Shown here: positions 25,918-62,285 of the stretch, in pieces
How positions within the stretch are numbered: position 1 is the first letter of the stretch
Layout of the letters: each line of letters begins with the position of its first letter
Assembly (NCBI GenBank): GCA_964641245.1
Contig: CAZXML010000001.1
Span: forward strand, 127,959 to 191,958
Reading direction: 5' to 3'
DNA length: 64,000 nt
DNA from: an uncultured Gammaproteobacteria bacterium
GTDB taxonomy: Bacteria; Patescibacteriota; Patescibacteriia; Magasanikbacterales; GWA2-37-8
Translations under genes and position numbers: made by a program
Notes under the pieces: generated by a model
What the model was told of the DNA's origin: nothing
Database searches by the model: none
What the model saw: only the letters and a program-made list of their open reading frames with translations

Positions 25918-26754
25918 TTATAGCATTCTTTCTCTAAGCGCTAAATAAGTAAATTTTGCCGTTGCGTTAAATATCCGCACAAATCGTCGAGGCTCCTGAA
26001 TCAATCGATACACCCATTCTAACCCAATTTGGCGTAAAAATAAAGGGGCGCGTTTTACTTTTCCGGAAATAAAATCAAATGACCCGCCCACGCCCATGGC
26101 TATTTTTACACACGGCATTTTTGATAGGTTTTCGTGAATCCATTTTTCTTGCTTGCCCATGCCAAAGGCGACGAAGAGGATGTCGGGGTTTGATTGGTTA
26201 ATTTGTTGAATGGTTGAATTGATGCCGGCGACGAAAACCCCCTCTTCTGTTCTCCCCCTTATAGGGGGAGAGACCGCAGCGAACAGCAACGTGTCGCTCC
26301 CTCCCCTATAAGGGGAGGGACAGTGGGTGGGGTTTTGTTCGTCAATCGCTGGACCCCTATCGAAACCAGAGATCTTTAAACTAGGAAACTTTTTCTGCAA
26401 TTCCTCTGCCGTTCTCTTCACTGTTTCGTCACTCCCCGAACCTAACAAATAAACACTCATCCCTAACTCACCGGCTACCCTACAAATCTCTAACATAAAA
26501 TCTACCCCTGGGACTCTTTTAATTCCAGTAAAAATCTGTAAACCCATCCCATCGCACAAATTCAAATCGCTGGAATTTAAAACCTTTTTAAAATATTCGT
26601 CTTTTTGCGCCTTCACTACAAATTCCGGATTGGGAGTAAAAATTGTATGTTGGCCACCATGCAAAAAATCCACGACTTTTTGTAGTGCGGTTTCTTTGGT
26701 ATCTCCGTCAATTTTTATACCCAAAAATTGCATAATATGGTAAAATTGTACCAT
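25918..26754 (-). CDS. WecG/TagA/CpsF-family glycosyltransferase (N-acetylmannosaminyltransferase-like) carrying an in-frame repeat insertion
   Basis: 'ILFVAFGMGKQEKW' and 'IAMGVGGSFDF..GKVKRAP' match the family. The start is uncertain: M14 at 26754 or M21 at 26733. The ORF-track start at 26793 would overlap the CIRCE-like site. Confidence 0.7.
   Translation of the reverse strand: MVQFYHIMQFLGIKIDGDTKETALQKVVDFLHGGQHTIFTPNPEFVVKAQKDEYFKKVLNSSDLNLCDGMGLQIFTGIKRVPGVDFMLEICRVAGELGMSVYLLGSGSDETVKRTAEELQKKFPSLKISGFDRGPAIDEQNPTHCPSPYRGGSDTLLFAAVSPPIRGRTEEGVFVAGINSTIQQINQSNPDILFVAFGMGKQEKWIHENLSKMPCVKIAMGVGGSFDFISGKVKRAPLFLRQIGLEWVYRLIQEPRRFVRIFNATAKFTYLALRERML
26225..26345. repeat. GC-rich double-hairpin element inserted in frame within the TagA-family gene
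   Basis: Perfect hairpins lie at 26251-26271 (TCTCCCCC-ttata-GGGGGAGA) and 26298-26320 (TCCCTCCCC-tataa-GGGGAGGGA). The local GC content is far above its surroundings. It encodes about 40 extra residues that are absent from the family consensus. Confidence 0.6.
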
Positions 26755-26786
26755 GCCTTGACACTTTTTAACAAGATGGTATAGTA

Positions 26787-26813
26787 TTATCACTCAACTC
26801 GTATGAGTGATAA
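26787..26813. promoter_or_regulatory. CIRCE-like inverted repeat (HrcA-operator-like) upstream of clpB
   Basis: 'TTATCACTC-aactcgtat-GAGTGATAA' compared with the CIRCE consensus TTAGCACTC-N9-GAGTGCTAA. The two arms are perfectly complementary. Confidence 0.55.
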
Positions 26814-33126: not shown

Positions 33127-33233
33127 CTGTCATCCCGAATGAGCCGTAGCGACGAGGGATCTAAACCGATAAAAGAAAATTTTTTTTAATTTGAATAGAT
33201 CCCTCGTCGGCTAAGGCCTCGCTCGGGATGACA
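33127..33233. repeat. inverted pair of GTCATCC-family hairpin repeats. Left unit 33127-33161, right unit 33197-33233.
   Basis: 'tgtcatcccgaatgagccgtagcgacgagggatct' ... 'agatccctcgtcggctaaggcctcgctcgggatgaca'. The right unit is identical over 37 nt to 52521-52557. Confidence 0.7.
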
Positions 33234-33248
33234 GGTTGTGACTTGAAT

Positions 33249-35619: not shown

Positions 35620-35638
35620 ACTAGGGCGCGGGGTTTAG

Positions 35639-35708
35639 TTGTCATCCTGAACTTGTTTCAGGATCTATCACGACTAACCAAGATGCTGAAACAAGTTCAG
35701 CATGACAA
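35639..35708. repeat. inverted pair of GTCATCC-family hairpin repeats between def and fmt
   Basis: Left unit 'ttgtcatcctgaacttgtttcaggatct' at 35639-35666. Right unit 'tgaaacaagttcagcatgacaa' at 35687-35708. The left unit is identical over 28 nt to the reverse complement of 58202-58229. Confidence 0.7.
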
Positions 35709-35714
35709 AAAAAT

Positions 35715-37695: not shown

Positions 37696-39129
37696 ATGAA
37701 CGCTTCTACCCTTACAAAAAGACCAATCCCCTTATTCCTTGCCCTATACTTTGGCTTGCGAATTTTTTCCTATTTCTTCAGCCCAGGAACCCCATTATAC
37801 TTGGGCAACCCTATAAATTGGATTGTTTCCGTTGGAATCCTACTACTTACTACCTACTACTTACTACTTCGCAATGACGAGCGTGGCTGGCTGATTATTG
37901 CCGGAGAGTTAATTTTGGGTGGGGCGGGCGGCTTTTTGGAGATAAGAGGTGTTTCTTTGCGAACTTTGTTGCTAATATCCGCAATGGCAATTTTTGTATA
38001 TCATGTTTTAAAAAATAAACAATTTGACGTAATTGGGAGCAAAAGAACTCTATTGCTTATATTCAAAGCCTTGTTCGTGATAATTGGCCTGTCCGCCATG
38101 CGCGGTTACTATTTTGGTCACAATCTTAAACTGGTCTTGGCCGATACCATTCCATATCTTTTCCTCTTATACTACTTCCCGCTCAAACAACTTCTTCAAT
38201 CCGAAACATTTCGTCGCACATCGTTTAACATGTTAATTGCGGCAATAATCGGCAATTTTATTTTTATATATCTGACCCTGGCCGGATTTTCTTCCGGAGT
38301 TTTTGCTCTGCAGGATTCCTACTACCATTGGTTCAGAGATGTAGCCGGCGGCAAGATTACCGACTACGGCACCGGATTTTTTAGAATACTGACAAATGAA
38401 CAATTATTGATTGTGCCGTTGTTGATATTTTTCATCGGAAATATTATTCGCCAACCCACCCCTACCCCGCCCAAGCGGGGAATTACAAGTTTTGGCCTCG
38501 CAATGACAGGCGCGCTATTGGCGCTACTAACAATAAATATAACCCGCATTTACCTGGTCGCGCTGGCCGTTGGTATTTTATTTTTATTCTCCGCAAAAAA
38601 TTGGAAACGCTGGCTTACCTACTCTGCCGGAGCGTTCATTTTTTTTATTTTGGCTTTTTCCCTCACTCACCTAGCCGCCACCAAGGGAAAAAGTTTGGGC
38701 TGGGAATATTTAGGATTGCGCCTGCAAAGTATTGCCATGCCGCAAATTGAAGACAGCTCGCTTAGCCGGATGATGCTTCTGCCGAAAATTCTGGAAAAAA
38801 TCAAACTTCATCCGATATTGGGCAATGGATTGGGTGATGCGGTTACAGTGTTTAGTCCAGTATTCGATGCAAACATAACAACCCCGCATTTTGACTGGGG
38901 CTATTTGGAAATAATAGACGAACTTGGTCTCGTCGGTCTCGCAACTTGGATATTAATTATTGGATATTTGATATTGAAAATTAAACAAAACAAGACCGCT
39001 CTCGCAGGTCTTGTTGGGTTGTTGGTTATAAACATCACTTCCCCGGCGCTATTTCATGTGTTGGGAGTGGTTTTTTTAATTTACTTACTAAGTAGCTATG
39101 GCGAAGTTGAACTCACCGAGTTCCACTAG
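37696..39129 (+). CDS. O-antigen ligase/polymerase (Wzy_C) family polytopic membrane protein, carrying an in-frame repeat and a 14-nt tandem duplication
   Basis: 'HFDWGYLEIIDELGLVGLATWILII' resembles the Wzy_C signature. Many TM helices. Confidence 0.5.
   Translation: MNASTLTKRPIPLFLALYFGLRIFSYFFSPGTPLYLGNPINWIVSVGILLLTTYYLLLRNDERGWLIIAGELILGGAGGFLEIRGVSLRTLLLISAMAIFVYHVLKNKQFDVIGSKRTLLLIFKALFVIIGLSAMRGYYFGHNLKLVLADTIPYLFLLYYFPLKQLLQSETFRRTSFNMLIAAIIGNFIFIYLTLAGFSSGVFALQDSYYHWFRDVAGGKITDYGTGFFRILTNEQLLIVPLLIFFIGNIIRQPTPTPPKRGITSFGLAMTGALLALLTINITRIYLVALAVGILFLFSAKNWKRWLTYSAGAFIFFILAFSLTHLAATKGKSLGWEYLGLRLQSIAMPQIEDSSLSRMMLLPKILEKIKLHPILGNGLGDAVTVFSPVFDANITTPHFDWGYLEIIDELGLVGLATWILIIGYLILKIKQNKTALAGLVGLLVINITSPALFHVLGVVFLIYLLSSYGEVELTEFH
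37840..37867. repeat. perfect tandem duplication of a 14-nt unit (ctactacttactac x2) inside the CDS
   Basis: 37840-37853 is identical to 37854-37867. The unit length is not a multiple of 3. Confidence 0.7.
38450..38484. repeat. 35-nt G/C-hairpin repeat, copy 1, in frame inside the O-antigen-ligase-like gene
   Basis: 'gccaacccacccctaccccgcccaagcggggaatt' is identical to 60448-60482. Contains the hairpin CCCCGC-ccaa-GCGGGG. It encodes 'QPTPTPPKRGI'. Confidence 0.75.
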
Positions 39130-52274: not shown

Positions 52275-53948
52275 TCAATTCCCGTCCAACCCCCTCGCCT
52301 CTTCTCTGCTCTCCACCAATCCCAACCGCACCAAACGCGCTTCTATTCCGCTTTTTTTACGGCCCAGGGTTTCGGCTATTATAGAAAGGAGTGTTTTTTT
52401 GGAAAAAAGTATTTTTAGAATTTCGTCTTGTTCTTCGGTCCACGAACGAAAAGCGTTAGGGTGTTTTTCGCGAATTTTGTCAAAACTGCGATCTTTGCCT
52501 TTATTTTTTTTCATGGGTATAGATCCCTCGTCGGCTAAGGCCTCGCTCGGGATGACAGCGGTGGGAGGGATGACAGATGGTGGGATAACAACAGTGCCAC
52601 TGCATGCTTTTACAAAATTGTTGTGCATTTTTTGTAATTCAGCGGGTGGAATTTCGGCAAAGGCGGTTAAGGCGGCTTCGGAGCTGGCGCGGAATACACC
52701 GTCTTCTTTTAAAACATCCGGATGAACCTGAAACGCGCGTTCGTTCCAGCCGAGCAGATGCAGGCCTTTTAGGCGACGAACGCGGGAAAGCGCCACATAA
52801 CCCTGGCCAAACTCAAAAACTCCGCTCAAGTCCACGACCGCTTCATCCAAACTCATCCCCTGGCTTTTGTGAACCGTAATTGCCCAGGCTAAACGCAGAG
52901 GCAATTGTGAAATTTTGGCGCGCGATTTTCCATTTTCGTCTATACTCCAATCCATTTTTTCTACGGTAATTTTCCGGCCGTCGTTGGTTTTTACAATCGG
53001 CATGCCGATATACTTATCAAAACTTTCCACCGTGCCCAGCGTGCCGTTTACATAACCCTCTTTAGGATTATTTTTGGTAAACATTATTTTTGCGCCTTCT
53101 TTTAAAACTAAATTATACGGAGAAAGACATCCTCTCTGCAATGTTTCCACCAACCCGGGAGCGCCCTTAGATGTCATGATGTATGTTACGGGGTGTCCGG
53201 AAAAAGTTTCCAACATGGCGTCATTGGTGCGGTCAACATTTATGTTATGCGTATAAAGTTTCACCGCTTTGTCCGGCGCGTCATCAGCCAAAATTTTTCG
53301 GCTTTCTAGTTGCGCTAAATGGTTTTCATTAAAATTATTGGAGCGGATTGCCGAAAGTAAATTTAAAAACTTACTGTCATCCTGACGATGCTGTTCGGTA
53401 AGATAACAAACCATTGGATTCGCTCTTTTCCAGGCCGGAGAATCATAGGCAAACCGCGCTATTGGAGTATTAAACATTTCAGTTTGATCATCCCGACTTG
53501 CTACGCTTTTCGTTATTGGTGGTAACTGAAAAAAATCCCCTACCAAAATAACCTGTAACCCGCCAAAGGCATCGTTGTTTTGTCTGATACTCCGGCACAC
53601 GGCCTCTACCATAGAAAAAGTATCGGGGCCGAGCATTGATACTTCGTCTATCACCAAAACTTTTGCGCGGCGAACGCGTTTAACCAAATATTCGGTAGAA
53701 GAAATTTTATCTAACTCATACCTATCCAAATACGGTTTGATTCCAATCCCACTCCACGAATGAATTGTCATCCCGCCAATATGAGTAGCCGCGATGCCCG
53801 TGGAAGCCGTAATGGAAGGCTCTATCCCCCGCGCGCGCAAATAATCCGCGTACTGATTTATAGTATGCGTCTTGCCCGCTCCCGGTTCTCCGGTTAAAAA
53901 AACATTGGCGCCGGTTTTAAGTATGTCCAGCGCTTCCTTCTGATTCAT
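52275..53948 (-). CDS. PIF1/RecD-family (AAA_30) DNA helicase with a C-terminal HTH-like domain and an in-frame repeat insertion in the linker
   Basis: 'LTGEPGAGKTHTI', 'VLVIDEVSM', 'VGDFFQLPP' and 'TVHKSQGMSLD'. The linker 'VVIPPSVIPPTAVIPSEALADEGSIP' is encoded by the repeat. Confidence 0.75.
   Translation of the reverse strand: MNQKEALDILKTGANVFLTGEPGAGKTHTINQYADYLRARGIEPSITASTGIAATHIGGMTIHSWSGIGIKPYLDRYELDKISSTEYLVKRVRRAKVLVIDEVSMLGPDTFSMVEAVCRSIRQNNDAFGGLQVILVGDFFQLPPITKSVASRDDQTEMFNTPIARFAYDSPAWKRANPMVCYLTEQHRQDDSKFLNLLSAIRSNNFNENHLAQLESRKILADDAPDKAVKLYTHNINVDRTNDAMLETFSGHPVTYIMTSKGAPGLVETLQRGCLSPYNLVLKEGAKIMFTKNNPKEGYVNGTLGTVESFDKYIGMPIVKTNDGRKITVEKMDWSIDENGKSRAKISQLPLRLAWAITVHKSQGMSLDEAVVDLSGVFEFGQGYVALSRVRRLKGLHLLGWNERAFQVHPDVLKEDGVFRASSEAALTAFAEIPPAELQKMHNNFVKACSGTVVIPPSVIPPTAVIPSEALADEGSIPMKKNKGKDRSFDKIREKHPNAFRSWTEEQDEILKILFSKKTLLSIIAETLGRKKSGIEARLVRLGLVESREEARGLDGN
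52521..52590. repeat. GTCATCC-family repeat unit plus degenerate tandem partial copies, in frame within the helicase gene
   Basis: 52521-52557 is identical to 33197-33233. It is followed by 'gcggtgggagggatgacagatggtgggataaca', a reiteration of the gggatgaca terminus. Confidence 0.75.
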
Positions 53949-56891: not shown

Positions 56892-56971
56892 TTGTCATCC
56901 TGAATGAAATGAAGGATCTCTGTCTCAATCGCGAAATGGACAGAGATTCTTCGTTTTGCTCAGAATGACAA
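56892..56971. repeat. inverted pair of GTCATCC-family repeats with a central 8-bp-stem hairpin, between thiI and the exonuclease gene
   Basis: Left unit 'ttgtcatcctgaatgaaatgaaggatct'. Centre TCTCTGTC...GACAGAGA. Right unit 'attcttcgttttgctcagaatgacaa'. Confidence 0.6.
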
Positions 56972-58150: not shown

Positions 58151-58201
58151 AGCGTCTCAAATGTCAAGCTGAATTTATTTCAGCATCTATAATGTCCGCG
58201 C

Positions 58202-58229
58202 AGATCCTGAAACAAGTTCAGGATGACAA
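58202..58229. repeat. solo GTCATCC-family repeat unit, reverse orientation
   Basis: 'agatcctgaaacaagttcaggatgacaa' is the reverse complement of 35639-35666, a 28/28 match. Confidence 0.7.
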
Positions 58230-58295
58230 TCATACCTATTTAGTCTTATTTTATTTGTATTCTACAGTATTTTTGAAATTTGTAAAGCGCGGGTA

Positions 58296-58941: not shown

Positions 58942-60072
58942 TTATTTTGCTAAAAACTGTTTTATCTTCTCCGCATTTCGCAGCTGTCCGCAAGCGGCGG
59001 CGATGTCTTGGCCTTGAGAGTAGCGGATGGTAGAAACAAAACCGGCTTTCATTAATTCCTCGTGCCAGTGTTTAATTACGGTTTTGTCCGAACCAATAAA
59101 ACCCGGAGAAAATTCCGGTGTAGAAATACTGTTATAAGGAATCAAATTTATTTTAATTTTTCCTAATTTTCCTGCCAGCGTCATCAGCGCTTTTAAATCT
59201 TTGGGACCGTCGTTTACTCCGCCTAACATAATATATTCCAAACCGATAAAATGAGAACGGCTTGGGTGCATTTGGTGATATTTTTTTGCCCAGCCCACTA
59301 AATAATCCAAAAATCCGGGTTGGTGTGAAGGCATGATAGCGGAGCGGGTTTGTTCTATAGCGCTGTGCAAAGACAGGGCAAAGCGTACAGGCGGAAAATC
59401 TTTGTCTTCCACCAACCTGTCCATGGCCGTGGGAATTCCGCAGGTGGACATGGTAATTTTACTCGGCCCGATGTTTGTATATTTTAAAATAATATTTAAA
59501 GCGGTTTTGCAATTTTCATAGTTCAGCAATGGTTCTCCCTGGCCCATCACCACCATATTATCTATTTCCCCGCCATTTTGTTCCGCTAATGTCTTCTGTG
59601 CCGACTTTCCAGCGGGAAAGTCGAGCATCCTCGATTCCACGGTGAGGCGGAATCGGGACCAAAAACGATACTGGTCCACAATTTCTTCAGCGGTTAAATT
59701 TCTGGAAAATCCGGCTTTACCGGTGGCGCAAAAAGAACATTTCATGCCACAGCCAACTTGAGATGAAATACAAATTGTGTAACGGTCCGGTCCCCCATCG
59801 GTTTTGAGTGACTTTCGACCCATTAAAACCGCCTCAATAAGTTGGCCGTCTTCCAATTTTAATAAAGCCTTTTGAGTGTCATCGGTTTTACTTTTGTGGA
59901 GAACGTGTAATTTTACCGACAGCCAAGGCTTGTCTTTTAACTTCTCCCGTAAATTTGCCGGCAAGGTTGTAATATCAGCGTAGCTATTTAACTTTGCGTC
60001 AAACCAGGCCCGGAACACTTGGTCCTGCCTGAATTTCTTTTCGGTTGCTAAAATTTGGAATAAATCTATCAT
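58942..60072 (-). CDS. rlmN: radical SAM 23S rRNA (adenine2503-C2)-methyltransferase RlmN/Cfr family
   Basis: 'GCGMKCSFCATG' is the CxxxCxxC motif. 'MGQGEPLLN' is also present. Confidence 0.85.
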   Translation of the reverse strand: MIDLFQILATEKKFRQDQVFRAWFDAKLNSYADITTLPANLREKLKDKPWLSVKLHVLHKSKTDDTQKALLKLEDGQLIEAVLMGRKSLKTDGGPDRYTICISSQVGCGMKCSFCATGKAGFSRNLTAEEIVDQYRFWSRFRLTVESRMLDFPAGKSAQKTLAEQNGGEIDNMVVMGQGEPLLNYENCKTALNIILKYTNIGPSKITMSTCGIPTAMDRLVEDKDFPPVRFALSLHSAIEQTRSAIMPSHQPGFLDYLVGWAKKYHQMHPSRSHFIGLEYIMLGGVNDGPKDLKALMTLAGKLGKIKINLIPYNSISTPEFSPGFIGSDKTVIKHWHEELMKAGFVSTIRYSQGQDIAAACGQLRNAEKIKQFLAK

Positions 60073-62285
60073 TTTATCGCATTCAAAATCTTTTCTTTAA
60101 TATCGTTTGGAGTCATTTTGGCGACCTCATAAACCTCGGCTACATTGCCGGATTTTAAATAGTGAGTTATGCCGATGGATTTTTTGGCGTAATTTGGTTG
60201 GAGCATGAACGGATACAGAAACCCGGGCCAGCCGTTGTGGAGGGTGATGACAAGCGGGCGTTCTTCATCCGGCAGAATTAATTGGGCGCTGGCGGGATTG
60301 GAGTGACGGAGTTCTTCAAATAGTTCCGGGGAGGTGACGGAAATGATTTTTATATCAAAACCTTTGGCTTCAAGTTCGGGTATAATTTCTAGGGTGTTTA
60401 ATAGGACTTGCATGCCGCAGATGGCGAGGACGAGCTTCCGACCGTCGGCCAACCCACCCCTACCCCGCCCAAGCGGGGAATTCGAAAATTGTTTGTAGAC
60501 GTAGGCGCCGTTGGTGGCTGAAATCGCCGGTGGGACAATAGCGCGGTTGATTACGGGTTGTTCCGGTCTGTAGACGGACAGAACGATTGGTTCGCCGCGT
60601 TCCAGCGCGTAAAATAACATTTCTATAGTTTCGTTAGCATCGGTAGGTTTGTAAACTTTTATGCCGGGCAAGGCGTTGTAAAGAGACATCCAATACATTC
60701 CCTGATGTGTTGGGCCGTCCTCGCCAGTTTCCGGGCCATCATGCGCGGCTAAGGCAATAAAAAATCCTTTGGTTTCCGGGTTGAGCTGATTGCCGATAAC
60801 AGCCAGGCGAATAGCGTTGGCCATCATATTTGTAAAGACGGCAAAAGTGCCAAAAACAGAAACGGGTTTGTATCCGCCGGGTAAAATATCTTGAGTTAAG
60901 CCGGCGCCCATCATGGCCATATTTTGTTCGGCAATTCCATAACGAATACCGCGCCCTAACGGATTTTTCCGGCTGATGAGACCATAAACTTCTTCGGCGG
61001 TATTTGTGAAAACAGATTTTGATAAATCCCCCGCTCCGGCGTAAAAAAATGCGGTTTGTTTCATGTACCAGGCCATCCACGCTTGCGCGGCTGTGCGGGT
61101 AGAAACTTTTTTTCCTTCGGCAAAAACCAGTTCGGGCGGTAAAACTTTTGGACGTTTTATGGCCAGTGGGTTAACCATCGGCCGGCCATTTAGCGTCTTC
61201 ACCATTTGTTTTACCAATTCCGATTCATGCGGAATTTTTTTAGCTCCAACTTCTAATCTTTCTAAAATATATTTTTCATCATCAGTTGTAATTTCTTTTA
61301 AGACGGTTTGAATATCAGCCATTACTTCCCCCGCTTTTCCAGGAATATCAAATCCCAGTTTTTTCATTATAGACACATACTCGTCATGTTTTACGGGCGA
61401 GCCGTGCGATGCGGCGGTGTTTTCTTTGGAGCCATAGCCTTTTCCTTTTAAGGTATGGCAAATAATTACCGTTGGCGAGCCGTTGGCAAAACCCTGCGCG
61501 GCCAAACGATAAGCGTAAACCATTTCCAAAACATTGTGCCCGTTTGTTTCTATCACATTCCATCCCAGCCCCAGCCAATGATTTATGTACGGCGAAGCCA
61601 CCACTTCCTCAATTTCCGCATCAATGCCAAAATGATTGTAATCCAAACTGACAATCATGTTTTTTAATCCGTTGGTGGCGATAATATTTCGCGCCTCATA
61701 AGTCATCCCTTCTTCGCTTTCCGCGTCGCCCATAAAAACAAAAGTTTTGGTATCCAATCCGCAGGATTGATGAACCATAGCCATTCCACCCGCCGCCGAA
61801 AATCCGTGCCCGGACGGCCCGGTAGTAAAATCGGAATAAGGATATTGAGCTTCCGCGTGACCCTGCGGGCCATCGGCGTGTCTAAAGCGTAATAAATCCT
61901 CCGGAAAAACTGCCTTCACCACCGCCCCGGAAAATTGCCTCCCTGCGCGCCGTAACATTTCATAATATAAAGCCTGCCCGCCAAAAAGCAAAGGAGTGCA
62001 ATGACCGGAACTCCAAACCACTCTGTCTCGGCCAGGATTTTTTGGATTCACCGGATCAAAAGCCATTACCCCACCCAAGGTCATTGCTAAAAATTGTTCT
62101 ACTTTTCCACTGCTGCCCGGATGGCCGGATTGTCCGGCTTCTACGGCGGCGAAAATAAGGCCACGGATAACTTTGGCCAGTTTGTCTAATCTTTGTATAT
62201 CAATTCCGTCTATGGCAGATATTTTTTTGTTTTGAATGTTTATGTATTCGGGAGCTAGAGGGTTTGCTTTTAATTTTTTAAACAT
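60069..62285 (-). CDS. tkt: transketolase (single-chain, 738 aa) with an in-frame repeat insertion
   Basis: N-terminal TPP motif 'SGHPGSS' ... 'GHCTPLLF', and 'GDAESEEG'. The insertion encodes 'NSPLGRGRGGLADG'. Confidence 0.85.
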   Translation of the reverse strand: MFKKLKANPLAPEYINIQNKKISAIDGIDIQRLDKLAKVIRGLIFAAVEAGQSGHPGSSGKVEQFLAMTLGGVMAFDPVNPKNPGRDRVVWSSGHCTPLLFGGQALYYEMLRRAGRQFSGAVVKAVFPEDLLRFRHADGPQGHAEAQYPYSDFTTGPSGHGFSAAGGMAMVHQSCGLDTKTFVFMGDAESEEGMTYEARNIIATNGLKNMIVSLDYNHFGIDAEIEEVVASPYINHWLGLGWNVIETNGHNVLEMVYAYRLAAQGFANGSPTVIICHTLKGKGYGSKENTAASHGSPVKHDEYVSIMKKLGFDIPGKAGEVMADIQTVLKEITTDDEKYILERLEVGAKKIPHESELVKQMVKTLNGRPMVNPLAIKRPKVLPPELVFAEGKKVSTRTAAQAWMAWYMKQTAFFYAGAGDLSKSVFTNTAEEVYGLISRKNPLGRGIRYGIAEQNMAMMGAGLTQDILPGGYKPVSVFGTFAVFTNMMANAIRLAVIGNQLNPETKGFFIALAAHDGPETGEDGPTHQGMYWMSLYNALPGIKVYKPTDANETIEMLFYALERGEPIVLSVYRPEQPVINRAIVPPAISATNGAYVYKQFSNSPLGRGRGGLADGRKLVLAICGMQVLLNTLEIIPELEAKGFDIKIISVTSPELFEELRHSNPASAQLILPDEERPLVITLHNGWPGFLYPFMLQPNYAKKSIGITHYLKSGNVAEVYEVAKMTPNDIKEKILNAIK
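60448..60482. repeat. 35-nt G/C-hairpin repeat, copy 2, in frame inside the transketolase gene
   Basis: Identical to 38450-38484. Confidence 0.75.

What the first reader, a model, noticed from the sequence alone, without database searches (positions are those of the whole stretch)
60448..60482. Identical 35-nt G/C-hairpin element sits in frame inside transketolase and inside the O-antigen-ligase-like gene
The 35-mer gccaacccacccctaccccgcccaagcggggaatt occurs twice, at 38450-38484 on the + coding strand and at 60448-60482 inside a minus-strand gene. Its core is the hairpin CCCCGC-ccaa-GCGGGG. Both host ORFs stay open through it. The encoded stretches are QPTPTPPKRGI in the ligase-like protein and NSPLGRGRGGLADG in transketolase. 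The transketolase stretch falls where family members have only a short loop, just before the C-terminal domain. Its GC content is far above the roughly 38% background. This is the signature of a mobile palindromic mini-element that inserts into coding sequence without destroying it, as Rickettsia palindromic elements do. I do not know of a description for this lineage.
Basis: seen in the sequence. Interest (0 to 1): 0.8.

Follow-up and report, generated by a model that had tools for sequence, protein, structure and literature searches.

The report
Stray end-repeat of a nuclease mini-element
The 35-base repeat sitting in frame inside two genes of this ultra-small (Patescibacteria) bacterium is a stray copy of the 33-base end-repeat of a tiny selfish DNA element that carries a nuclease gene of unknown function, and such repeats pepper the proteins of this lineage at tolerant loops.

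Summary
The 35-mer occurs exactly twice, in frame, inside transketolase and inside a Wzy_C-type (O-antigen-ligase-like) membrane protein.

It belongs to a real dispersed family. The conserved unit is 33 nt (11 codons): a 6-bp G/C hairpin followed by a G-rich arm. About 100 near-identical copies were found in nine Patescibacteria genome bins, and more in metagenomes. Roughly 40-50% lie inside long ORFs, and five of the six reading frames are used.

Close transketolase and ligase orthologues lack the insert. Others carry different palindromic repeats at the very same position, so these sites are hotspots.

- The 33-mer is the terminal inverted repeat of a ~0.47-kb cassette encoding a ~130-aa DUF559 (Vsr-like) nuclease. 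All eight such genes inspected at DNA level were bracketed by inverted repeats of this design.
- At least 94 of 120 homologues end in a repeat-encoded tail.
- Gene-less doublets (~90 nt) and solo ends, as in this window, are derivatives.

No RAYT transposase was found. Movement itself is inferred, not shown. I found no published description.

The parts
60449..60481 (-). Solo 33-nt repeat unit; on the - strand it reads ATTCCCCGCTTGGGCGGGGTAGGGGTGGGTTGG. It lies in frame in transketolase, and together with flanking bases (36 nt, 60447-60482) encodes NSPLGRGRGGLA.
   Evidence: Exact repeat. Matches the 33-nt family consensus, which has sharp boundaries. Absent from orthologues such as L090/P0005. 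[quoted passage not shown]
38451..38483 (-). Second solo 33-nt repeat unit in the same orientation on the chromosome. The C-rich strand is the sense strand of the ligase-like gene and encodes QPTPTPPKRG(I).
   Evidence: Orthologues without the insert are in alignment A2 and in the DNA comparison.
60463..60478 (.). Hairpin CCCCGC-CCAA-GCGGGG: 6-bp stem, 4-nt loop.
   Evidence: Folding energy -8.2 kcal/mol, z = -3.85. Across the family the loop varies while the stem is kept, and compensatory stem variants occur in related subfamilies.
38465..38480 (.). The same hairpin in the ligase-like gene copy.
60069..62285 (-). Transketolase host gene (738 aa). The insert corresponds to about residues 602-613.
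   Evidence: Pfam hits, orthologue alignment A1, AlphaFold model.
37696..39129 (+). Host gene for a Wzy_C-type (O-antigen-ligase-like) membrane protein, 477 aa. The insert lies in the short loop just N-terminal to where orthologues match Wzy_C.
   Evidence: Orthologues at 51-75% identity (the 25 aligned) carry PF04932. Alignment A2.
38497..38508 (+). CTCGCAATGACA, the right arm of an older TGTCATTGCGAG...CTCGCAATGACA palindromic repeat in which the 33-mer is nested. The degenerate left arm AATATTATTCGC is at 38440-38451.
   Evidence: DNA comparison with the P0125 gene (L095), which carries the complete TGTCAT-type doublet at the same site and has an identical right junction, CTCGCAATGACAGGCGCG.

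Best explanation
The 35-mer is a solo copy of a 33-nt terminal inverted repeat. The repeat consists of a 6-bp G/C hairpin, a TA linker and the G-rich arm GGGGTGGGTTGG.

The repeat belongs to a family of very small selfish DNA elements in Patescibacteria. The full element is about 0.47 kb and has this layout: left repeat, a ~130-aa DUF559 (Vsr-like, PD-(D/E)XK fold) nuclease gene, then the right repeat in inverted orientation. The right repeat also encodes the last 11 residues of the nuclease.

Gene-less doublets of about 90 nt (two repeats head to head, folding into one long branched hairpin) and solo ends are derivatives scattered through the genomes.

The unit is 11 codons long and open in five of six frames. 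Copies that land, or are trimmed, in frame within permissive loops therefore survive inside genes. That is what happened in transketolase (the loop before the C-terminal domain) and in the Wzy_C-type protein (an inter-helix loop, inside the remains of an older TGTCAT-type palindrome).

Shown: family membership, secondary insertion relative to orthologues, the loop location, and the bracketing of DUF559 genes by the repeat.

Inferred: that the DUF559 nuclease recognises the structured repeats and drives their spread or maintenance. This could happen through cleavage followed by host recombination or repair, in a homing-like manner, since a 130-aa nuclease cannot by itself carry out strand transfer. 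It is also inferred that the window copies are now inert relics.
For: Family and boundaries. A scan of species-representative genomes with the 22-nt core found 87 stretches and about 100 copies in nine Patescibacteria bins. In a logo of 96 copies, the 11 positions not fixed by the search pattern are nearly invariant, and information falls to about zero outside the 33 nt.

DNA-level rather than peptide-level conservation. Five reading frames are used among 41 intragenic copies: SPLGRGRGGL 24, QPTPTPPKRG 8, NPPLPRPSGE 4, IPRLGGVGVGW 4, PTHPYPAQAGN 1.

Secondary insertion. The site is empty in close transketolase and ligase orthologues. The closest transketolase (P0002, 89% identical) carries a different repeat at that site. 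A gene 73% identical in DNA (L001) carries a 33/35-identical copy, although its flanks are only about 71% identical.

Loop location. The AlphaFold model places the insert in a coil with pLDDT below 50 at residues 604-613, between strands 594-598 and 616-623, with flanks above 89.

Parent element. In L028, L129, L145, L059, L218 and L219 the repeat brackets a DUF559 ORF in inverted orientation, in different genomic contexts. The ORFs match Pfam PF04480 at E 1e-24 to 1e-34.

Other subfamilies. Four further DUF559 genes were inspected. In three (L046, L220, L221) the tool found bracketing inverted repeats of the same design, a hairpin plus a G-rich arm (GGGGTGGGT in L220 and L221), with compensatory changes in the hairpin stem. 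In L072 it found bracketing 63-nt arms whose sequence was not printed, so their design was not checked. In L060 it found no bracketing pair.

C-terminal tails. At least 94 of the 120 best homologues end in a repeat-encoded tail. The 11 closest homologues (63-87% identical to the query, whose own record is a twelfth) all end in the 33-mer-encoded ANPPLPRPSGE or QPTPTPPKRG.

Doublets. 27 doublets were found. They fold at -45.6 kcal/mol, z = -9.9. Their 12-nt spacer TCAACGTTGTCG matches the sequence that follows the left repeat in gene-bearing copies.
Against: - No transposition event, target-site duplication or clean empty versus filled site for the full element was seen.
- No DUF559 gene lies in the 64-kb window or in the about 8 kb beyond it held in L092.
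- A Vsr-like nuclease is not a known transposase. The nuclease gene could be an invader of, or a passenger between, pre-existing repeats.
- Copy counts rest on exact-match scans, so they are biased towards young or conserved copies.
- The intragenic calls rest on ORF length, not on gene prediction.
- All genomes involved are metagenome bins, and some are mislabelled.
- The transketolase model is only moderately confident (mean pLDDT 68.8).
Confidence: 0.7

Rival explanations
1. It is a classical GTAG-type REP/REPIN, mobilised by a REP-associated tyrosine transposase (RAYT). The DUF559 association would then be incidental.
For: The unit contains GTAG next to a stem-loop. Head-to-head doublets are common. 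Intragenic REPs, and different REPs at the same site of one gene, are documented in Proteobacteria (PMC3733652).
Against: - phmmer with E. coli RayT against 2,632 ORFs from about 0.65 Mb around the copies found nothing; the best E-value was 0.19.
- GTAG is internal rather than terminal, and is replaced by GTTAG or GTTTG in the sister subfamilies.
- The gene that the repeats bracket is DUF559 in the cases with a gene between the repeats.
- 40-50% of copies are intragenic, whereas REPs are mostly extragenic.
Confidence: 0.08
2. The palindromic doublets are the primary repeats and spread by an unknown mechanism. The DUF559 gene would be a homing-endonuclease-like invader that targets the centre of the doublet. 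The nuclease would then not be what spreads the solo copies found in the window.
For: - Vsr-like nucleases include a proven homing endonuclease, I-Bth0305I, which cuts a pseudo-palindromic target (PMC3239194).
- The doublet centre contains the palindrome AACGTT, exactly where the gene sits in filled copies.
- In the loci fetched, only one cognate nuclease locus was seen per bin against up to about 50 repeats, for example in H41-bin286_1; whole genomes were not surveyed.
Against: - This does not explain how dozens of doublets and solos reach unrelated loci.
- The right repeat is part of the nuclease reading frame in nearly all homologues across phyla, which points to long co-evolution rather than occasional invasion.
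- These nucleases lack the NUMOD DNA-binding domain of I-Bth0305I.
Confidence: 0.17
3. The repeat is kept for a host function, not as selfish DNA. Candidates are a G-quadruplex or hairpin signal acting on replication, transcription or mRNA stability, or a useful Gly/Arg- or Pro-rich linker peptide.
For: The G strand carries a canonical four-tract G-quadruplex motif, GGGCGGGGTAGGGGTGGG (read directly from the sequence). The DNA sequence is highly conserved. Frame use is skewed towards SPLGRGRGGL.
Against: - Presence or absence is patchy among close orthologues.
- Copies occur in both orientations, in five frames, and both inside and outside genes.
- Different repeat families substitute for one another at the same site.
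- There is no Rfam match.
- The frame skew is what a tolerance filter would also produce.
Confidence: 0.04
4. It is a chance duplication, convergent coding sequence, an assembly artefact or a stray CRISPR repeat.
For: Only two copies occur in the 64-kb window. The length is typical of a CRISPR repeat.
Against: - No matches in shuffled sequence.
- About 100 copies elsewhere.
- The same transketolase protein, insert included, is also on record on a JGI metagenome contig.
- No regularly spaced array; copies are solo or in inverted pairs.
Confidence: 0.01

Closest known systems
Rickettsia palindromic elements (RPEs)
   Same: Both are dispersed repeat families with hairpin potential. A large fraction of copies sit in frame inside unrelated housekeeping genes, adding a peptide segment at tolerated positions. 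RPEs are described as unusually often in frame in PMC10969869.
   Different: - RPEs are about 100-150 bp, carry a CGTC tag (PMC3733652) and are restricted to Rickettsia.
- This unit is 33 nt, G/C-rich, has no CGTC and shows no sequence similarity to RPEs.
- It occurs in Patescibacteria.
- It has a candidate cognate enzyme, whereas no dedicated enzyme is known for RPEs.
REP / REPIN - RAYT systems (REPtrons)
   Same: Both have short G/C-rich stem-loop repeats, inverted doublets that fold into one long hairpin, and many repeats per genome against one or a few copies of an enzyme gene that is itself flanked by the repeats. Occasional intragenic copies and shared hotspots also occur in REPs (PMC3337134; PMC3733652).
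   Different: - The flanked gene is a DUF559, Vsr-like PD-(D/E)XK nuclease, not a Y1 (IS200/IS605-type) transposase.
- No RAYT was detected.
- The GTAG tag is not conserved across subfamilies.
- A far larger share of copies is intragenic.
[quoted passage not shown]
   Same: The gene-less doublets share both terminal repeats, plus 8-12 subterminal bases, with a gene-bearing element. This is the same relationship that MITEs have to their parent insertion sequences.
   Different: No target-site duplication was seen. The parent does not encode a recognised transposase. The commonest form here is a solo end of 33 nt.
EDxHD / Vsr-like homing endonucleases (I-Bth0305I)
   Same: Same nuclease fold clade: Vsr, DUF559 and DUF2726 form one PD-(D/E)XK group in PMC3424549. 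The protein carries the acidic/His motif IEIDGLSHD. This is a precedent for a Vsr-like nuclease driving the mobility of its own gene.
   Different: - I-Bth0305I sits in a group I intron and has NUMOD DNA-binding modules.
- These proteins are free-standing, about 130 aa, consist of the nuclease domain alone and are framed by structured inverted repeats.
- The closest solved structure is the uncharacterised Neisseria protein 3HRL (E 1.5e-14).
Mobile G+C clusters of yeast mitochondrial DNA (from my own knowledge, not checked here)
   Same: Both are short G/C-rich palindromic clusters in an A+T-rich genome that can sit in frame inside a coding gene (var1).
   Different: They occur in an organelle and belong to a different sequence family. 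No associated nuclease cassette of this kind is known for them.

Membership tests
Rickettsia palindromic elements | Dispersed repeat family with many copies inserted in frame in unrelated ORFs | tested here: met
   About 100 copies. 34 of 71 solo copies and 8 of 30 paired copies lie deep inside ORFs of at least 150 aa. Transketolase and ligase orthologues lack the insert.
Rickettsia palindromic elements | Sequence and size of RPE families (~100-150 bp, CGTC tag, Rickettsia lineage) | tested here: not met
   The unit is 33 nt, contains no CGTC, and the host is Patescibacteria. RPE features are taken from PMC10969869 and PMC3733652.
GTAG REP / REPIN-RAYT | Short stem-loop tagged at one end by an unpaired GTAG | tested here: inconclusive
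   GTAG is present in the 33-mer, but it is internal and its first G is in the hairpin stem. In doublets, GTAG precedes the 10-bp arm pairing. Sister subfamilies have GTTAG or GTTTG instead.
GTAG REP / REPIN-RAYT | Inverted doublets (REPINs) that fold into a long hairpin | tested here: met
   27-30 doublets were found. The consensus folds at -45.6 kcal/mol, z = -9.9.
GTAG REP / REPIN-RAYT | Cognate RAYT (Y1 transposase) gene flanked by the repeats | tested here: not met
   phmmer with E. coli RayT against ORFs from about 0.65 Mb around the copies gave a best E-value of 0.19. The flanked gene is DUF559. Whole genomes were not searched.
MITE | Terminal inverted repeats shared with a longer gene-bearing element | tested here: met
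   Doublets share both repeats and the subterminal (T/C)CAACGTT with the DUF559 cassettes.
MITE | Target-site duplication, and a parent that encodes a transposase | tested here: not met
   No flank duplication in the logo or in the full-length copies whose flanks were printed. The parent ORF is a Vsr-like nuclease.
DUF559 (PF04480), Vsr-like PD-(D/E)XK nuclease (the flanked gene, not in the window) | Pfam gathering score and conserved acidic/His catalytic motif | tested here: met
   84-117 bits against a cut-off of 20.6. The motif IEIDGLSHD is visible in the sequences. PDB 3HRL matches at E 1.5e-14. Catalytic activity was not tested.
EDxHD homing endonucleases | Location in an intron or intein, NUMOD-type DNA-binding domain, and demonstrated site-specific cleavage | tested here: not met
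   The genes are free-standing and intergenic and only the nuclease domain is detected. Cleavage cannot be tested with these tools.
Transketolase (host gene) | TPP-binding N-terminal domain and pyrimidine-binding domain | tested here: met
   PF00456 at E 4e-39 and PF02779 at E 1.6e-22. PDB transketolases match at up to E 3e-47.
CRISPR repeat | Regularly spaced direct repeats forming an array | tested here: not met
   Copies are solo or in inverted pairs at unrelated loci.

The most novel reading that the evidence does not exclude
Small free-standing DUF559 nucleases, a widespread family annotated as function unknown, may be the cognate enzymes of a previously unrecognised class of REP-like structured repeats found across several bacterial phyla.

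Each nuclease subfamily has its own co-evolving hairpin-plus-G-arm terminal repeat. Together they would form a nuclease-based counterpart of the REPIN-RAYT system. In Patescibacteria the solo ends are a recurrent source of in-frame loop insertions in housekeeping proteins.
Probability: 0.45. Interest if true: 0.85.

Novelty: new variant of a known kind. Interest (0 to 1): 0.74.

Why it matters
If the link holds, it would matter in three ways.

1. It would give DUF559, a large "unknown function" nuclease family, a concrete and testable role.

2. It would add a second type of enzyme-plus-repeat partnership, nuclease-based, alongside the tyrosine-transposase-based REPIN-RAYT systems.

3. It would show that the highly reduced genomes of Patescibacteria tolerate, and may diversify through, repeated in-frame insertion of structured repeats at protein loop hotspots. 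Four proteins in this one 64-kb window carry such inserts.

There are also practical consequences. These repeats may contribute to fragmented assemblies (several copies lie at contig ends), they inflate "hypothetical" peptide tails, and they can confuse domain annotation and phylogenetic alignments of marker proteins.

Tried and rejected
- RAYT search. E. coli rayT was fetched and run with phmmer against ORFs around the copies. Nothing was found.
- Multi-copy protein clustering to find a transposase. No transposase family emerged, but this step revealed the DUF559 cluster.
- Viral contigs scan for the 22-mer: 0 hits, so there is no sign of a phage vector.
- Rfam search on the window copy and on a full cassette: no match.
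- Defence-system library (PADLOC): only a weak similarity to a methyl-directed restriction enzyme, consistent with a shared fold.
- Empty-site comparison for a full cassette (L129 against L003). The neighbourhoods differ, so no clean empty site was obtained.
- Target-site duplication: none is visible in the flank logo or in the full-length copies whose flanks were printed.
- Whether the insert explains the missing Wzy_C Pfam hit of the window protein. Deleting the 11 residues in silico does not restore the hit, so the miss reflects a borderline score, not the insert.
- Whether L050 is a third transketolase with the insert. It is a different protein.
- Sequence alignment to solved transketolases. 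The one alignment printed (5vrb) stopped before the insert, so it could not place it. The AlphaFold model was used instead.
- Literature searches found no description. The term combinations were Patescibacteria or CPR with palindromic element, RPE, REP, REPIN or MITE, and DUF559 alone.
Full report
**1. Observation**

The 35-mer GCCAACCCACCCCTACCCCGCCCAAGCGGGGAATT is present exactly at 38450-38484 and 60448-60482, both on the + strand. There are no other matches at up to 3 mismatches and none in shuffled sequence. Its hairpin CCCCGC-CCAA-GCGGGG folds at -8.2 kcal/mol as DNA, z = -3.85.

The two host genes are as follows.
- A 738-aa transketolase at 60069-62285 (-), with Pfam Transketolase_N and Transket_pyr.
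- A 477-aa polytopic membrane protein at 37696-39129 (+). Its 51-75% identical orthologues (the 25 aligned) carry Pfam Wzy_C.

Both ORFs read through the repeat. Transketolase gains NSPLGRGRGGLA and the membrane protein gains QPTPTPPKRGI.

The window is 40.4% G+C; the repeat is 69% by my count from the sequence. Homologue names place the organism in Patescibacteria, near Magasanikbacteria. The same transketolase protein, insert included, is also on record on a JGI metagenome contig; whether that assembly is independent of the window's source is unknown.

**2. The inserts are secondary, and the sites are hotspots**

In an alignment of 32 transketolase orthologues, the position after GAYVYKQFS is the only large internal indel site.
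- Many relatives at 80-87% identity have no insert. These are P0005, P0007, P0008, P0010-14 and P0017-19.
- The closest relative (P0002, 89%) and P0003, P0006, P0009 and P0015 carry TVIPTEAVADEGSI.
- P0004 and P0016 carry other repeat-like peptides.
- P0022 (78% identical) carries SPLGRGRGGL, like the window.

At DNA level the window has a 36-nt block where the empty gene L090 reads TTT TCT GGT AAT GGT GAG AAG. P0002 has at that site a copy of another repeat family, TGTCATCCCGA...GGGATC. That family also occurs twice in this window.

The P0022 gene (L001) has a copy of the window's element that is 33/35 identical. The two genes are 73% identical overall and about 71% identical in the 150 nt on either side.

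The same picture holds for the membrane protein. There is no insert in P0126 and many others. An ILSFPQKRESS-type repeat occupies the site in P0122, P0123, P0129 and P0158. A TGTCATTGCGAGG...CTCGCAATGACA doublet occupies it in P0124, P0125 and P0134.

The window copy lies between a degenerate left arm (AATATTATTCGC, against AATGTCATTGCG) and an exact right arm (CTCGCAATGACAGGCGCG) of that doublet. The 33-mer is therefore nested in, or has replaced the interior of, an older palindrome.

The AlphaFold model of the transketolase has mean pLDDT 68.8. It puts the insert in a coil with pLDDT below 50 at residues 604-613. The coil lies between strands 594-598 and 616-623, and the neighbouring 10-residue blocks score above 89.

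**3. A real dispersed family**

A scan of one genome per species for the 22-nt core GGGCGGGGTAGGGGTGGGTTGG returned 87 stretches with about 100 copies in nine Patescibacteria bins. Some of these bins carry wrong NCBI names.

| Bin | Copies |
|---|---|
| H41-bin286_1 | 52 |
| co13_685 | 18 |
| co20_215 | 13 |
| H51-bin093_1 | 7 |
| SMAG_U15825 | 4 |
| four further bins | 1 each |

A logo of 96 copies shows a sharply bounded 33-nt unit: A(T/A/G)TCCCCGCT(T/C/A)GGGCGGGGTAGGGGTGGGTTGG. The 11 positions not fixed by the search are nearly invariant, variation is concentrated in the hairpin loop, and the flanks carry almost no information. No target-site duplication is visible.

By my tally of the variant list it yielded about 85 further family members. 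These include hairpin variants with compensatory stem changes: CCCCTC...GAGGGG, CCCTGCC-CGC-GGCGGGG and CCCTGC-AC-GCAGGG.

By an ORF-length criterion, 34 of 71 solo copies and 8 of 30 paired copies lie deep inside ORFs of at least 150 aa.

Five of six frames are open. Among 41 intragenic copies the frame use is SPLGRGRGGL 24, QPTPTPPKRG 8, NPPLPRPSGE 4, IPRLGGVGVGW 4 and PTHPYPAQAGN 1. An invariant DNA sequence read in several frames means the conservation is at DNA level. The skew in frame use is what a tolerance filter would give.

One intragenic copy has the same flanks in two loci attributed to different bins, L033 and L087.

**4. Larger forms**

27 copies are doublets of about 90 nt:

ATTCCCCGCTTGGGCGGGG-TA-GGGGTGGGTTGG-TCAACGTTGTCG-AACCCACCCC-CGGCCTTGAGGCCGA-CCCCGCCCAAGCGGGGAAT

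This is an inverted pair in which one half carries an extra GGCC hairpin. It folds at -45.6 kcal/mol, z = -9.9.

Many doublets sit inside TGTCATTCCGA...TCGGAATGACA arms. GTCAT occurs within 40 nt upstream of 24 of 99 copies, against 3.4% at random positions. The repeat is therefore preferentially associated with, or nested in, another palindromic family. The ligase copy in the window fits this pattern.

**5. The parent element**

Clustering all ORFs from the fetched loci to look for a transposase found none. It did reveal a small protein present next to the repeat in several loci.

At DNA level, six loci have the same architecture. They are L028, L129, L145, L059, L218 and L219. Five come from different genomes or samples and sit in different genomic contexts; L145 and L059 appear to be variants of one locus, sharing a neighbouring gene. 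The layout is the 33-mer in G orientation, 12-25 nt, an ATG, a ~125-130-aa ORF, then the 33-mer in C orientation, with the stop codon just after it.

In L028 the arms are 37 nt long, 95% complementary and 365 nt apart. The ORFs match Pfam DUF559 at E 1e-30 to 1e-34 for the cognate subfamily, against a gathering score of 20.6 bits. They carry IEIDGLSHD. Their closest solved structure is the uncharacterised Neisseria protein 3HRL.

DUF559 belongs with Vsr in one PD-(D/E)XK clade. That clade also contains the intron homing endonuclease I-Bth0305I (PMC3424549, PMC3239194).

Four further DUF559 genes from other subfamilies were inspected.
- Three of them (L046, L220, L221) are bracketed by different inverted repeats of the same design: a hairpin followed by a G-rich arm. 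The arm is GGGGTGGGT in L220 and L221 and GGTGGGGTTTG in L046.
  - L220: GATCCCCTCCTGGGAGGGGTTAGGGGTGGGT
  - L221: ATCCCCTCCCTGGAGGGGTTTGGGGTGGGT
  - L046: CCCCTTTCCAAGGGGAGGTTAGGTGGGGTTTG
- L072 is bracketed by 63-nt arms (79% complementary, 382 nt apart). The tool did not print their sequence, so their design was not checked.
- For L060 the tool found no bracketing pair. It found only a doublet overlapping the 3' end of the ORF and extending downstream.

So nine of ten genes inspected are bracketed by inverted repeats, and for eight of them the hairpin-plus-G-arm design was seen.

Of the 120 best homologues, at least 94 end in a repeat-encoded tail. These homologues are about 130 aa long, come from several phyla, and many are on very short contigs. 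The 11 closest (63-87% identical to the query, whose own record P0241 is a twelfth) all end in ANPPLPRPSGE or QPTPTPPKRG, which is the 33-mer read in two frames. The next subfamily ends in KPTPxPSxEGN, which corresponds to the CCCCTCC hairpin variant.

The 12-nt spacer of the doublets matches the bases that follow the left repeat in gene-bearing copies: TCAACGTT..., CCAACGTT..., TCATCGTT.... Even solo copies tend to continue with CCAACGTT. The window's transketolase copy continues with CCGACGGT. Doublets and solos are therefore states of the same element.

**6. Mechanism**

Shown:
- The window's two 35-mers are solo terminal repeats of this family.
- They were acquired secondarily.
- They lie in frame at loop positions that other repeat families also occupy.

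Inferred (about 0.7 overall, lower for the enzyme's exact role):
- The DUF559 nuclease recognises the structured repeats and underlies their spread or persistence, probably through cleavage followed by host recombination or repair.
- Only copies that keep the frame in permissive loops survive inside genes. This is helped by the 33-nt length and the five open frames.

The hotspots can arise in two ways. One is selection for tolerant loops. The other is a preference for inserting into existing palindromes, which is supported by the nesting and the GTCAT enrichment. The two are not exclusive.

The main mechanistic rival is that the nuclease gene is a homing-type invader of the doublet centre (AACGTT) rather than the mobiliser of the repeats.

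A classical REP-RAYT system is unlikely for three reasons. No RAYT was detected in about 0.65 Mb around the copies. GTAG is not conserved in sister subfamilies. The gene between the repeats is always DUF559.

**7. Comparison and novelty**

In behaviour this matches Rickettsia palindromic elements (in-frame passengers in housekeeping genes) and REPIN-RAYT systems (repeats plus a flanked, low-copy enzyme gene). It fails the defining sequence and enzyme features of both (see the membership table).

Searches of the paper library found no description of such repeats in Patescibacteria, nor of DUF559 genes framed by cognate repeats. The library is incomplete, so prior description cannot be excluded.

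I rate it a new variant of a known kind.

**8. Limits**

- All genomes are metagenome bins.
- Scans were exact-match and capped.
- Intragenic status is by ORF length.
- No nuclease gene lies in the window.
- No movement, cleavage or target-site duplication has been observed.

Noticed in passing
window 26229-26341, inside ORF 25918-26793 (-): A ~113-nt palindromic doublet of a sister repeat family lies in frame inside a WecG/TagA-family glycosyltransferase. Its arm is AAAACCCCACCCAC and its hairpin is CCCTCCCCTTATAGGGGAGGG, with the arms outside and the hairpins inside. It adds about 38 residues (QNPTHCPSPYRGGSDTLLFAAVSPPIRGRTEEGV). The Pfam match spans 200 residues for 167 profile positions. 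The closest homologue, P0361, shares the insert; most others lack it.
   Followed up: yes
window 52522-52558 (inside PIF1-like helicase 52275-53948, -) and 33198-33234 (intergenic): Two copies of a second repeat family, GATCCCTCGTCGGCTAAGGCCTCGCTCGGGATGACAG. The helicase copy is in frame and encodes AVIPSEALADEGSI. The same family occupies the transketolase hotspot in the closest orthologue P0002 and in P0003, P0006, P0009 and P0015.
   Followed up: partly
window 35632-35713, 56892-56919, 58161-58236: Copies of a TGTCATCCTGAAC...GTTCAGGATGACA hairpin family in what appear to be intergenic spacers. TGTCAT...ATGACA arms also flank many doublets of the 33-mer family in other genomes. No cognate gene was looked for.
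   Followed up: no
alignment A3, columns 78-123 (P0361, P0367); alignment A1 (P0004, P0016): Orthologues of window proteins carry further repeat-like inserts at other fixed positions, for example LSFRPKQSGVEKS... in the WecG-family protein P0361. In-frame palindromic inserts at loop hotspots therefore look pervasive in this clade.
   Followed up: no
L159 (Ga0213873_10000013, 206-kb contig, 70% G+C): A doublet with the same GGGGTAGGGGTGGGTTGG arm, but with a different and compensated hairpin (CCCCTCCCTGC-AC-GCAGGGAGGGG), occurs in a high-G+C organism that is clearly not a Patescibacterium. The repeat superfamily therefore reaches well beyond this lineage.
   Followed up: no
loci L004-L089 (record titles): Several bins carrying these repeats and Patescibacteria-type genes are titled 'uncultured Gammaproteobacteria' or 'Candidatus Udaeobacter' in their NCBI records, which looks like mislabelling. 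Several copies lie at contig ends in H41-bin286_1, which is what one would expect if the repeats break assemblies.
   Followed up: no
window 60477-60482: The transketolase copy creates an EcoRI site (GAATTC) at its junction with the gene. The ligase copy reads GAATTA at the corresponding position. This is probably incidental.
   Followed up: no
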